Of a stretch of 64,000 nt of DNA, positions 1 through 3,000 are shown one piece after another. A program made the position numbers. Origin of the DNA: Escherichia coli (GTDB taxonomy: Bacteria; Pseudomonadota; Gammaproteobacteria; Enterobacterales; Enterobacteriaceae). The stretch is taken from the NCBI RefSeq assembly GCF_024223415.1, contig NZ_CP100500.1; one strand, written 5' to 3'. Within the stretch, counting starts at the first letter, position 1, and each line of letters starts with the position of its first letter.

Positions 1-3000
1 CAGCTTACGCCGTGATGGGAATTGTCCGGCCTTTTCCAGGCGGTAGCGGCATGAGCGGCTAAGCCCTGTTAGCTTTTCGCATTCTTTTTCACGTATAAAC
101 CGATCAGTGCTTAACACTATTGCCCCCTTTCGTTTCTTAAAGAGTTATTTCGTGTTCTATTGCGTTGGTATGTGTCTGATTGTGTCAGGGTGATTCAGAG
201 TTGGCAAATGTTGGTGGCGGGTATTTTACAGAAACGGGGTTATTTTAATAAAAAACATTTTAATTCAGTATTATGCAAAGGCATAAAATCTCGTTTTATG
301 CCTTTTTTCTCACTATTTAAAGCGTTATTCGCTAATGTATAAAAAACCAGTTGAGCATTAAAAATCAGCAACTTATAAATCTGTATACTTTTTGGCCTCT
401 TGTTCGTGGTTGTTTCACGTTGTTGCGTATTGTTTCACGTTGTATCTGTGCACTTATCCAGTATGCGCATACTGAAAAAACACGAAAAAAATTATTTTCT
501 TCTGGTTACTGGTAGCGTGGTTACGTTTTCATGTGCTCCCGCCAGTATCTCCAACCGCTCCACCCACATATCCAGCGCATTGCGTTTCGCATCCAGATAA
601 CGGGAATGATTATAAACTCGCTGCATTCCTGGCATCTGGTGGCCTGTAAGCTGCTCCACGACGTGAGGATCCACGCCTAAATCGTTCAGCATCGTTGTAA
701 AGGTGCGCCGGATGTCATGCAGTGACCAGTGAGGGTGTTTAAGCCTCCTGTGCGCTAATCTTCCATACTGCGATACGCTGGCCTCCTGTTTCACTTCCCC
801 CAGCAATAAGCCCGTGTGCCTGTTCTGCTCCACCAGCTGCGTGACGAACGGCAGTATCGCTTCCGGTATGGGCCGGAATATGGCTACCTTCGTTTTGCTG
901 TGCTCCTTCGGAACGGTCCATAGCATTTCGGTAAAATCCCACTCCCCGATCTCCGATAGCCTCAGTTCTACTGTCCTGGCTCCGAAGACAATCAGGAGGC
1001 GGATTAGTGCGACGTAGTAAGGGGAAAATATTTTTTTGTCCAGTGCCTGCAATAATTCGCCAAGTTCTTTGTTACTTAAGACACGCTGACTTATATCCGG
1101 TTTTTTCCCAACGTCAGCAACACTCATATCATCAAGAACGTTGCTGATTGCATAGCGCCGCTTCCGGCAGAACTTAAGCGCCTGTTTGCATGTCTGTAGC
1201 AGGAATCCGGCGGAAACAGGGGCTTGCTTTGCCACCCGATCAAAACAGGCCAGCCAGTGCCGTAGCTCGCATTTATCCAGCGGCATAGCACCAATCTGCT
1301 GTATTACGTGATTATTAAGTCGCCTTTTCAGGGCGATATAATCCACGCGGTTTTCCTTTACGTAATACTCAAGCCAGTAGGTAAGCGCATCGCCAACCGT
1401 TACAGGCTTTAACGCTTCCTGTACGGTGTAATTCATCTCATGACGTGGATTTTTCCCCTCAGCCAGCCATGCGCGGCACTGTGCGGCTTTTTCCCTGGCT
1501 GCTTTCAGGCTCAGATCAGGATAATTTCCCAGCTTAATCCGTTCCGGTCGTGCTCCCCTTCCCGTTCCGGCCCTGTAGGTGAAATACCAGGTTAAAAGGC
1601 CGCTGGTTGAATGCCTGACGGTCAGGTTTCCACCGTCATTAAGAAAGACTGTTTTTTGGGCGGGTGTGCCGTTGATTTTCCTTAGCTGTGTATCGCTCAG
1701 TTTGTTAAGTGCTCTGCGCATAATTTTGATTCCGGTCATCACAATTAACTACACCATTAACTACACCGATCGTTGCACAAAGGGCTACAACGTGAAACAA
1801 GCTGGAACAAGAAAAATCACAAATTTGTTTATAATCAAAAACATAATGCACAACCTGAAACATTATGAAACGGCAAAAAACACTAATTGATAAAAGGGAT
1901 ATTTAAATAACGTCACCGGTTACCGCGATGATTTACTGGCTAACCGTGCGATTGTGAAACACGGTAATTTCGCACTGTTAACACCAGACGGTCTGGTAAA
2001 AAATATTATTCCGGGCTTTGAAAATTGTGACGCGACAATCCTCTCCACGCCAAAGCTGGGTGCCTCTTTTGTTGATTATCTGGTCACACTGCATCAAAAC
2101 GGTGGCAACCAACAGGGCTTCGGTGGCGAAGGCATTGAAACGTTCCTGTATGTGATCTCTGGAAATATCACTGCCAAAGCCGAAGGCAAAACATTTGCCT
2201 TAAGCGAAGGTGGCTATCTTTATTGCCCGCCAGGCTCCTTAATGACGTTTGTTAACGCCCAGGCCGAAGACAGCCAAATCTTTTTATATAAGCGCCGCTA
2301 TGTTCCGGTAGAAGGCCATGCACCGTGGCTGGTTTCTGGCAATGCCAGCGAACTGGAACGCATTCACTATGAAGGTATGGATGATGTGATCCTGCTGGAT
2401 TTTCTGCCCAAAGAGTTAGGTTTTGATATGAACATGCATATCCTCTCTTTTGCACCAGGTGCCAGCCATGGTTATATCGAAACACACGTTCAGGAACACG
2501 GTGCCTATATTCTTTCCGGTCAGGGGGTTTATAACCTCGACAATAACTGGATCCCGGTGAAAAAAGGCGATTACATCTTTATGGGCGCTTATTCTTTACA
2601 GGCTGGTTATGGCGTAGGGCGTGGTGAAGCGTTCAGCTATATTTACTCGAAAGATTGCAACCGCGACGTAGAGATTTAAGTCATACCACTCGCCTGATTA
2701 TTTTTAGCTATGTTGGATTTTGCCACGGTTTATACCGTGGCTTTTTTTGTAACATTGCCTGATGCGCTTCGCTTATCAGGCCTACATGATCTCTGCAATA
2801 TATAGAATTTGCGCGATTTTCAGGAAGGATATAGTGCTCATGCAGCATCCGGCATGAGCACTGCGCTCTTATACGAAATAAATCGCATCCGCTTTAAAGG
2901 TAAGGGTCAGTTTTTAATTCCCTGACCTATTTTAATGGCGCAGGCAATATTTCGCGCGCTGTTGAAGAGATTGGTTTCACCGCTGGCGAGCACTTCGGCT

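What the first reader, a model, noticed from the sequence alone, without database searches (positions are those of the whole stretch)
402..443. Direct repeats (ttgtttcacgttgt x2, plus related tgttcgtggt) downstream of the P4-type integrase
Two exact 14-bp direct repeats 20 bp apart, in the non-coding region 3-prime of the integrase gene, resemble iteron or arm-type protein binding sites found in P4-like and integrative elements.
Basis: seen in the sequence. Interest (0 to 1): 0.25.

Follow-up and report, generated by a model that had tools for sequence, protein, structure and literature searches.

The report
Phased repeat array upstream of alpA
The two 14-bp repeats are part of a conserved array of five 10-bp units in an E. 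coli phage-satellite island, most likely a landing pad for the island's small excisionase-like regulator AlpA; this is an ordinary kind of site that seems not to have been described for this family.

Summary
TTGTTTCACGTTGT occurs exactly at 410-423 and 430-443. These copies are units 2 and 4 of a five-unit head-to-tail array, TTGT-N6 with a 10-bp period, at 400-449.

The array lies between int (492-1721, minus strand) and alpA (start at 117, minus strand). The host element is an EcCICFT073-family phage-inducible chromosomal island (PICI), inserted in the 5' end of allE.

The same phased motif occurs only in the island's att arms. Window copies are at 1771-1810 and 1844-1873, both inverted. A third copy lies at the far end of a sister island.

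Twenty distinct variants in relatives keep the TTGT(T) phase, with 5-6 units, while the flanks diverge.

The array is not a replication iteron. The island's real iterons are CTCCCCACTTTT, next to the helicase gene. It is too far from the core (about 1.44 kb) to serve as a recombination arm site.

My best reading, at about 0.55 confidence, is an operator array for AlpA, a winged-helix excisionase-type protein. Supporting points:
- One-helical-turn direct repeats are typical of recombination directionality factor (RDF) sites.
- A GTTCG-type core resembles footprinted TorI sites.
- The array lies inside the published AlpA-responsive PalpA fragment.
- A separate doubled 12-mer in both arms fits integrase arm sites better.

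AlpA binding itself was not tested. This is a new member of a known kind, of modest interest.

The parts
400..449 (+). Distal phased array: five head-to-tail 10-bp units (TTGTTCGTGG TTGTTTCACG TTGTTGCGTA TTGTTTCACG TTGTATCTGT). It contains the reported 14-mers at 410-423 and 430-443. Proposed AlpA (RDF-type) operator array.
   Evidence: Conserved as 5-6 units in 20 distinct variants.
1771..1810 (-). att-arm array B: four phased units (TTGTTCCAGC TTGTTTCACG TTGTAGCCCT TTGTGCAACG), inverted relative to 400-449. There is a 36-nt inverted repeat (398-433 versus 1777-1812), 81% complementary.
   Evidence: (I1, I3).
1844..1873 (-). att-arm array C: a degenerate phased array close to the core (CCGTTTCATA ATGTTTCAGG TTGTGCATTA).
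   Evidence: (D1, I2, I17). Picked up by the matrix scan in L005 and L006.
1744..1767 (-). Doubled 12-mer (sense GGTGTAGTTAAT x2; + strand ATTAACTACACC x2), ending 23 nt upstream of the int ATG. Candidate integrase arm-type sites.
   Evidence: 12-bp tandem repeat; exactly two co-oriented doubled copies per element, one in each arm. Analogous doubled motif in HE-PICIs (PMC10111431; L123) and in fis PICIs.
492..1721 (-). P4-type tyrosine integrase gene (409 aa from the ATG at 1721), transcribed away from the att junction.
   Evidence: PF13356, PF00589.
1..117 (-). 5' part of alpA (GTG start at 115-117; the gene runs off the left end of the window). It encodes a 62-aa Phage_AlpA winged-helix protein.
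   Evidence: Structure model and fold matches to excisionases.
277..305 (-). Perfect 12-bp-stem hairpin between the array and alpA. Natural variants keep pairing as G.U only on the minus (sense) strand. Probably the int terminator or an alpA leader structure.
   Evidence: I16; variants.
179..207 (-). Predicted sigma-70 promoter of alpA (TTGCCA - 17 - TG-n-CACAAT). The -35 is invariant in seven relatives. A prediction only.
147..199 (+). Possible second, degenerate phased array next to alpA (TTCGTGTTCT ATTGCGTTGG TATGTGTCTG ATTGTGTCAG GGTGATTCAG). Relatives differ here by indels of 10, 30 and +10 bp. It overlaps the predicted -10. Uncertain.
   Evidence: L004 14050-14079 hit; alignment A2, columns 55-110.
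1887..1894 (.). Island end and crossover region (GGGATAT is shared by both junctions in the sister island). The island interrupts the first codons of allE.

Best explanation
The repeats are a five-unit operator array for AlpA, the island's small winged-helix, excisionase-type (RDF) protein.

Proposed mechanism: AlpA monomers bind head-to-tail, one per helical turn, to TTGT(T)YC units. The same kind of array sits in the att arms next to the integrase's own doubled 12-mer sites, where AlpA would bend the arms and direct excision. The copy at 400-449 lies between int and alpA and belongs to the alpA control region, where AlpA is known to stimulate its own expression. On this reading it couples autoinduction of alpA to excision.

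Shown:
- The array, its phasing, its recurrence at the arms and its conservation.
- AlpA's fold class.
- The position of the array inside the published AlpA-responsive fragment.

Inferred:
- That AlpA, and not Int, is the protein that binds.
- That binding activates alpA.
- How a site about 195 bp upstream of the predicted -35, with a hairpin in between, acts on that promoter. This last step is unknown.
For: 1. Geometry. The array has 5-6 direct repeats at exactly 10 bp. TTGT is near-invariant while the other positions vary. RDF sites are direct repeats one helical turn apart (PMC7498355).

2. Distribution. In 42 kb of the complete sister island and its flanks, the phased motif occurs only at both att arms and in the int-alpA spacer. 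An RDF that also regulates transcription is expected to have sites in these places; Apl, Cox, Vis, TorI and RdfS are precedents.

3. Published experiments on the same family. In EcCICFT073, AlpA activates PalpA, is needed for excision, and does not change Pint (PMC6092414). The PalpA-lacZ fragment of pJP2038 maps to L012 2328-2783 and contains the whole array. No Int was present in that assay. The doubled 12-mer is absent from the fragment.

4. Footprinted precedent. TorI sites in KplE1 attL are CAGTTCGT ca TGGTTCGC tt CAGATCGT, with a 10-bp phase, and lie between the core and the IntS arm sites. The PICI arm has the same order: core, arrays, doubled 12-mer, int ATG. The cspD-site PICI arm reads TTGTTCGCCC TTGTTCGTCA CAGTTCGCCC.

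5. Protein fold. AlpA hits Pfam Phage_AlpA. Its AlphaFold model (pLDDT 89) best matches the GIsul2 excisionase 8c3t (TM 0.85), then RdfS, TorI, Pukovnik Xis and BldC.

6. Association with alpA rather than int. In cspD-site PICIs the spacer array sits about 120-165 bp upstream of the alpA ATG and far from the int stop.

7. Weak covariation. The array core varies between lineages: TTGTTYC, GTTCG, GTTCA. The cspD-type and a fis PICI share both GTTCG units and the AlpA helix CRTTR, although their Int N-domains differ. The doubled 12-mer core GGTG(T/C)AGT stays nearly constant.
Against: - No binding data exist for this array.
- Int and AlpA alleles co-vary almost perfectly in E. coli. 877 genomes carry the spacer and 903 carry an alpA match; the 26 best matches at 60-80% identity are probably the cspD type. 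No clean natural swap separates the two proteins.
- The arrays occur on both att arms directly beside the doubled 12-mer. That is also what integrase arm sites would look like, and most RDFs bind only one arm.
- The array is about 195 bp upstream of the predicted alpA -35, with a hairpin in between. That is an awkward position for a simple activator.
- fis PICIs have arm arrays but none upstream of alpA, so the autoregulatory copy is not universal.
- TorI is only a remote relative of AlpA (26% identity; Pfam E=0.12).
Confidence: 0.55

Rival explanations
1. The arrays are the arm-type sites of the integrase N-terminal domain. The copy at 400-449 would be an extra Int-binding cluster that lets Int regulate alpA or int, for example by looping to the inverted array upstream of int.
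For: - Int has an arm-binding domain (PF13356).
- The motif lies in both att arms within about 20-150 bp of the core, as arm sites do.
- Tandem arm sites such as lambda P'1-P'3 are also about 10 bp apart (established knowledge).
- The inverted orientation of 398-433 versus 1777-1812 would suit a loop.
Against: - The doubled 12-mer gives four co-oriented half-sites, two per arm, at fixed positions. That already fits an Int tetramer, as proposed for HE-PICIs.
- In KplE1 the GTTCG-type phased repeats are the RDF sites, and the Int arm sites are a different motif next to the int ATG.
- AlpA activates the spacer fragment without Int.
- No function is known for Int bound 1.44 kb from the core.
Confidence: 0.22
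2. The array is bound by some other factor, either a host nucleoid protein or a helper-phage protein. It would then be the cis element through which helper phages switch on alpA.
For: - Helper phages lambda and phi80 induce alpA through an unidentified factor, acting on a fragment that includes this spacer (PMC6092414).
- Excisionase cross-talk between elements has been shown in E. coli MP1 (PMC11773190).
Against: - The same motif lies in the att arms of the island, which points to an island-encoded recombination partner.
- Lambda and phi80 encode different excisionases.
- There is no direct evidence.
Confidence: 0.1
3. The array is a functionless relic: a duplicated, inverted copy of the att-arm array carried along with the int module.
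For: The 36-nt similarity between 398-433 and 1777-1812 includes the same unit order, which suggests an origin by duplication.
Against: - The TTGT phase is kept in 20 distinct variants, and in spacers whose flanks are only about 71-77% identical or unalignable.
- Unit number changes by whole 10-bp units.
- A different PICI lineage keeps an array with its own core in the same spacer.
Confidence: 0.05
4. The repeats are iterons of the island's replication origin.
For: They are short tandem direct repeats in a non-coding region of a replicating element.
Against: - The origin-type iterons are CTCCCCACTTTT, with 8 or more copies flanking an AT-rich stretch just downstream of the RepA-helicase gene (L001 15820-16031). 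That position is the one described for PICI origins (PMC6092414, PMC10111431).
- No TTGT array occurs there.
Confidence: 0.02

Closest known systems
TorI (RDF) binding sites in attL of prophage KplE1/CPS-53 of E. coli K-12
   Same: - Direct repeats with a 10-bp phase and a GTTCG-type core (I3-I5: CAGTTCGT ca TGGTTCGC tt CAGATCGT).
- They lie between the core and the integrase arm sites, just upstream of an inward-reading P4-family int gene.
- The RDF is a small winged-helix protein.
   Different: - TorI sites are reported only in attL. Here arrays lie in both arms and also 1.3 kb away, upstream of the RDF gene.
- TorI represses int, whereas AlpA does not change Pint in EcCICFT073.
- TorI and AlpA are only remotely related.
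Apl operators of coliphage 186 (and Cox of P2-like phages)
   Same: One small RDF binds two sets of direct repeats with 10-11 bp spacing. One set is at att for excision and the other is in a transcriptional control region (five at attP and seven at pR-pL).
   Different: - Apl and Cox repress the promoters they bind; AlpA activates alpA.
- The protein family differs, and the element is a phage rather than a satellite.
RdfS of ICEMlSymR7A and Vis of satellite phage P4
   Same: These winged-helix RDFs bind both the att region next to a P4-family int and their own or other promoters, coordinating excision with gene expression. RdfS is the second-best structural match to AlpA.
   Different: - RdfS sites show no consensus motif; here the motif is clear.
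- P4 and the PICIs differ in genome organisation (PMC6092414).
Doubled attP motif of helper-embedded PICIs (tgTGTATTGCa x2; PMC10111431)
   Same: It is a conserved cis element in the att arms of Gram-negative PICIs. The authors suggested binding by Int arm domains or AlpA.
   Different: That motif corresponds to the doubled 12-mer at 1744-1767, not to the TTGT array. The phased arrays and the spacer copy are not mentioned in that paper.

Membership tests
RDF (Xis/Cox/Apl/TorI-type) operator array | Three or more head-to-tail direct repeats spaced one helical turn (10-11 bp) apart | tested here: met
   Five units at exactly 10 bp in the window; 5-6 in relatives. No such pattern in 100 shuffles.
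RDF (Xis/Cox/Apl/TorI-type) operator array | The same motif is present inside the att site of the element, near the integrase arm sites | tested here: met
   Arrays at 1771-1810 and 1844-1873, and at the far arm of the sister island (L001 10768-10797).
RDF (Xis/Cox/Apl/TorI-type) operator array | The element encodes a small winged-helix RDF | tested here: met
   AlpA hits PF05930 at E=5e-18. Its model matches excisionases 8c3t, 8dgl, 1z4h and 4j2n. AlpA is required for excision in EcCICFT073 and EcCIMP1.
RDF (Xis/Cox/Apl/TorI-type) operator array | The RDF physically binds the repeats | not testable with these tools
   This needs a gel shift or footprint. The only indirect support is that the AlpA-responsive PalpA fragment contains the array.
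Integrase arm-type sites | They lie within the att site, typically within about 150-200 bp of the crossover core | tested here: not met
   The array at 400-449 is about 1.44 kb from the core at about 1890, with the whole int gene in between. The arm copies at 1771-1873 do meet this feature.
Integrase arm-type sites | They are bound by the N-terminal arm-binding domain of a heterobivalent integrase | not testable with these tools
   Int has the domain (PF13356), but binding specificity cannot be computed here. The doubled 12-mer is an alternative candidate.
Replication-origin iterons | They are clustered at the origin next to the initiator or helicase gene, flanking an AT-rich region | tested here: not met
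   The origin-type iterons, CTCCCCACTTTT, are at L001 15820-16031, about 4.4 kb from the array. There is no TTGT array there.
EcCICFT073-family Gram-negative PICI (the host element) | An inward-reading int followed by alpA, then icd-like, DUF4222, primase/helicase, ssb, perC and capsid-related genes; about 11 kb; its own att site | tested here: met
   The sister island L001 and CFT073 itself have this gene order. Int is 94% identical to the EcCICFT073-type Int of L004.

The most novel reading that the evidence does not exclude
The spacer array is the switch element of the island. It would be where the still-unidentified helper-phage signal acts, for example a helper winged-helix or excisionase-like protein, or a factor that loads AlpA. 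It would also pair with the inverted array upstream of int. A single AlpA filament or loop would then couple helper sensing, alpA autoinduction and excision.
Probability: 0.1. Interest if true: 0.6.

Novelty: new member of a known kind. Interest (0 to 1): 0.33.

Why it matters
Gram-negative PICIs spread virulence and defence genes and are being engineered as delivery vehicles. AlpA is their master switch, yet I found no described AlpA binding site in the searchable literature, and how helper phages turn on alpA is unknown.

A defined 50-bp candidate operator, plus matching arrays and a separate doubled 12-mer in the att arms, gives concrete targets for footprinting, reporter mutagenesis and excision assays in the EcCICFT073 model.

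As a type of element it is not surprising. Dual-purpose excisionases with phased direct-repeat sites are well known.

Tried and rejected
- I looked for natural Int/AlpA swaps to decide which protein tracks the motif. In 5426 E. coli genomes the spacer, int and alpA alleles travel together. The genome-contig scan returned nothing. The IMG/VR scan gave 80 loci of only two types.
- HE-PICIs, found through their doubled motif, have alpA abutting int, so there is no spacer and they are not informative.
- fis PICIs have arm arrays and a doubled 12-mer but no array before alpA. They gave only weak covariation.
- CP4-57 of K-12 shows other repeats (GAAGTCCKAAGAG) without 10-bp phasing, so it is not comparable.
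- EcCIMP1 (OR778291) is not in the collections.
- The Pseudomonas AlpA antiterminator model was considered because a hairpin follows the array. I rejected it: that AlpA is a larger protein with a C-terminal helix-turn-helix that reads a 6-bp element inside a promoter.
- I tried to place an AlpA-dependent promoter just downstream of the array by eye and by consensus scan. No conserved -35/-10 pair was found, so the route from array to alpA transcription stays open.
- The Pint-lacZ primers of pJP2039 were not found in the 3.5-kb stretch of CFT073 that I fetched.
- The iteron reading was rejected.

Full report
**Observation.** The sequence at 400-449 reads TTGTTCGTGG TTGTTTCACG TTGTTGCGTA TTGTTTCACG TTGTATCTGT. 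Allowing up to 2 mismatches, the 14-mer occurs four times in the 64-kb window against 0.51 expected. The extra copies are at 1787-1800 and 1850-1863 on the other strand. A pattern of four TTGT at 10-bp spacing matches only at 400-443 and 1777-1810, and never in 100 shuffles. The conserved feature is the 10-bp phase, not the exact 14-mer.

**Context.**
- A 409-aa integrase with the P4-type arm-binding domain is encoded on the minus strand at 492-1721.
- The window starts inside alpA, also on the minus strand, whose GTG start is at 115-117.
- A 98.4% identical sister island in E. coli AR_0085 (L001) shows the whole element, about 11 kb. Its gene order is int, alpA, icd-like, DUF4222, RepA helicase, ssb, perC, capsid-like, decoration and connector genes. 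It lies between allC and allE.
- The same element type sits between phoQ and roxA in hundreds of genomes, including CFT073. It is therefore the EcCICFT073 family of Gram-negative phage-inducible chromosomal islands.
- The array thus lies in the int-alpA spacer, 43 nt past the int stop codon (492-494) and 283-332 nt upstream of the alpA start. A perfect hairpin (277-305) and a predicted promoter (TTGCCA-17-CACAAT, 207-179) lie between the array and alpA.

**Recurrence in the element.**
- In the 42-kb locus L001, three or more phased TTGT units occur only at three places: the spacer (20400-20449), the int-proximal att arm (21771-21810), and the far att arm (10768-10797).
- The arm copies are inverted relative to the spacer copy. 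398-433 and 1777-1812 form a 36-nt inverted repeat, 81% complementary, with the same unit order. This suggests that one arose from the other.
- A weaker phased cluster (1844-1873) lies closer to the core.
- Each arm array is followed by a doubled 12-mer (sense GGTGTAGTTAAT x2; window 1744-1767). This doubled motif occurs exactly twice per element, co-oriented, once in each arm.

**Conservation.**
- The spacer is found in 877 of 5426 complete E. coli genomes, at 71-99% identity.
- In seven aligned spacers the TTGTT columns are invariant at 10-bp intervals, while intervening columns and flanks vary or cannot be aligned.
- Across E. coli and IMG/VR loci there are 20 distinct array variants with 5-6 units. 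One has a clean 10-bp unit duplication.
- The detection step required TTGT, so the positional frequencies are partly circular. The alignment is not.
- A second PICI lineage, at the cspD site (Int about 76% identical, AlpA about 56-60% identical), has arrays with a GTTCG core in its arm: TTGTTCGCCC TTGTTCGTCA CAGTTCGCCC. It also has a four-unit array in its spacer. There the array sits about 120-165 bp upstream of the alpA ATG, far from the int stop.
- The spacer array therefore goes with the alpA upstream region, not with the 3' end of int.

**What it is not.**
- The island's origin-type iterons are CTCCCCACTTTT, in 8 or more copies just downstream of the helicase gene. This is where PICI origins are described. 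No TTGT array is there.
- At about 1.44 kb from the crossover region (GGGATAT, about 1887-1893), the 400-449 array cannot act as a recombination arm site.

**Which protein binds.** Two island proteins are candidates: the Int arm domain and AlpA. I favour AlpA for the following reasons.
1. Recombination directionality factors bind head-to-tail to direct repeats one helical turn apart. Several of them have a second set of sites in a control region; Apl, Cox, Vis, TorI and RdfS are examples.
2. AlpA is a Phage_AlpA winged-helix protein. Its AlphaFold model (pLDDT 89) best matches the GIsul2 excisionase (8c3t, TM 0.85). The next matches are RdfS, TorI, Pukovnik Xis and BldC.
3. In KplE1 the footprinted TorI sites are CAGTTCGT/TGGTTCGC/CAGATCGT at a 10-bp phase. 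They lie between the core and the IntS arm sites, which abut the intS start. IntS has the same domain architecture as the PICI Int. The PICI arm has the same order: core, arrays, doubled 12-mer, int ATG.
4. In EcCICFT073, AlpA activates a PalpA-lacZ fusion in a strain with no other island gene. It is required for excision and does not change Pint. The fusion's primers map to L012 2328-2783, which includes the whole array and no doubled 12-mer. If AlpA acts directly at both the spacer and att, the only motif they share is the phased array.
5. The doubled 12-mer supplies four half-sites at fixed positions in the two arms. It parallels the doubled motif of helper-embedded PICIs, which was proposed to bind the Int tetramer. 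Its core, GGTG(T/C)AGT, is nearly constant across four Int lineages, including fis PICIs. The array core changes between lineages (TTGTTYC, GTTCG, GTTCA), roughly in step with the AlpA recognition helix (SR(S/T)CRY versus CRTTR(Y/F)). With four lineages and degenerate units, this covariation is only suggestive.

**Weaknesses.**
- No binding experiment exists.
- Int and AlpA alleles are never separated in the data I could reach.
- Arrays on both arms beside the doubled 12-mer are also compatible with Int binding.
- The array is about 195 bp upstream of the predicted alpA -35, with a hairpin in between, and I could not find a conserved promoter immediately downstream of it. How occupancy would raise alpA transcription is therefore unknown.
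- fis PICIs lack a pre-alpA array. They show a hairpin that would sequester the alpA ribosome-binding site instead. The spacer copy is therefore a lineage-specific addition.
- I put the AlpA-operator reading at about 0.55 and Int binding at about 0.22. The rest is split among another factor, a relic and iterons.

**Comparison and novelty.** This is the familiar design of a dual-purpose excisionase with phased direct-repeat sites at att and at a promoter region, seen here in the EcCICFT073 PICI family. In the searchable literature I found no description of AlpA operators or of these arrays. The helper-embedded PICI paper describes only its own doubled motif and states that it is absent from other PICIs. 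I rate the finding a new member of a known kind. Its practical value is a concrete, testable cis element for the AlpA switch, and its surprise value is modest.

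Noticed in passing
window 1744-1767; L001 10731-10754 and 21744-21767: A doubled 12-mer (sense GGTGTAGTTAAT x2) occurs exactly twice per island, co-oriented, once in each att arm. 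The int-proximal copy ends 23 nt before the int ATG. Related doubled 12-mers (TGGTGTAGTCAT x2, TGGTGCAGTCAG x2) sit in the same place in fis PICIs. The HE-PICI paper reported its own doubled motif as absent from other PICIs.
   Followed up: partly
window 1887-1960 (junction) and L001 10620-10700: The island interrupts the first codons of allE (core GGGATAT), so allE loses its ATG. Only 2 of 5426 complete E. coli genomes matched across this junction. The usual site is phoQ/roxA (core AAATATGTCC). The roughly 25 bp next to the core on the far arm differ between the two site types. The Ints differ by a few residues, including A248 versus C248 next to the presumed catalytic R249.
   Followed up: partly
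window 277-305: A perfect 12-bp-stem hairpin lies between int and alpA. Variants in L001 and in the CFT073 type keep pairing as G.U only on the minus strand (A.C on the plus strand). It therefore appears to work as RNA in the int/alpA sense transcript, although its U-tract on that strand is poor (UUUGCAU).
   Followed up: partly
window 147-199: The alpA-proximal stretch has degenerate 10-bp phased T(T/G)GTGT-like units that overlap the predicted -10 of alpA. Relatives differ here by indels of -10, -30 and +10 bp, and L006 has a run of TTGGG pentamers. This may be a second, weaker operator array.
   Followed up: partly
L001 15820-16031: The probable replication origin of the island has 8 or more copies of CTCCCCACTTTT, and related TAAATTCCCCAC repeats, just downstream of the RepA-helicase gene.
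   Followed up: partly
L198 3950-4003; L200 2430-2480: In fis-site PICIs an extra 257-302-aa gene separates int and alpA. A strong hairpin immediately upstream of alpA includes its Shine-Dalgarno sequence (for example GCTCCTTGC...GCAAGGAGC TGTA ATG). This suggests translational control of alpA in that lineage.
   Followed up: no
L197 440-662 (K-12 CP4-57, upstream of intA): Repeats GAAGTCCTAAGAG / GAAGTCCGAAGAG / AAATCCGAAC and TAGGCCCA / TTGGGCCTA lie between ssrA and intA. They are not phased at 10 bp and may be the CP4-57 counterparts of arm or AlpA sites.
   Followed up: no
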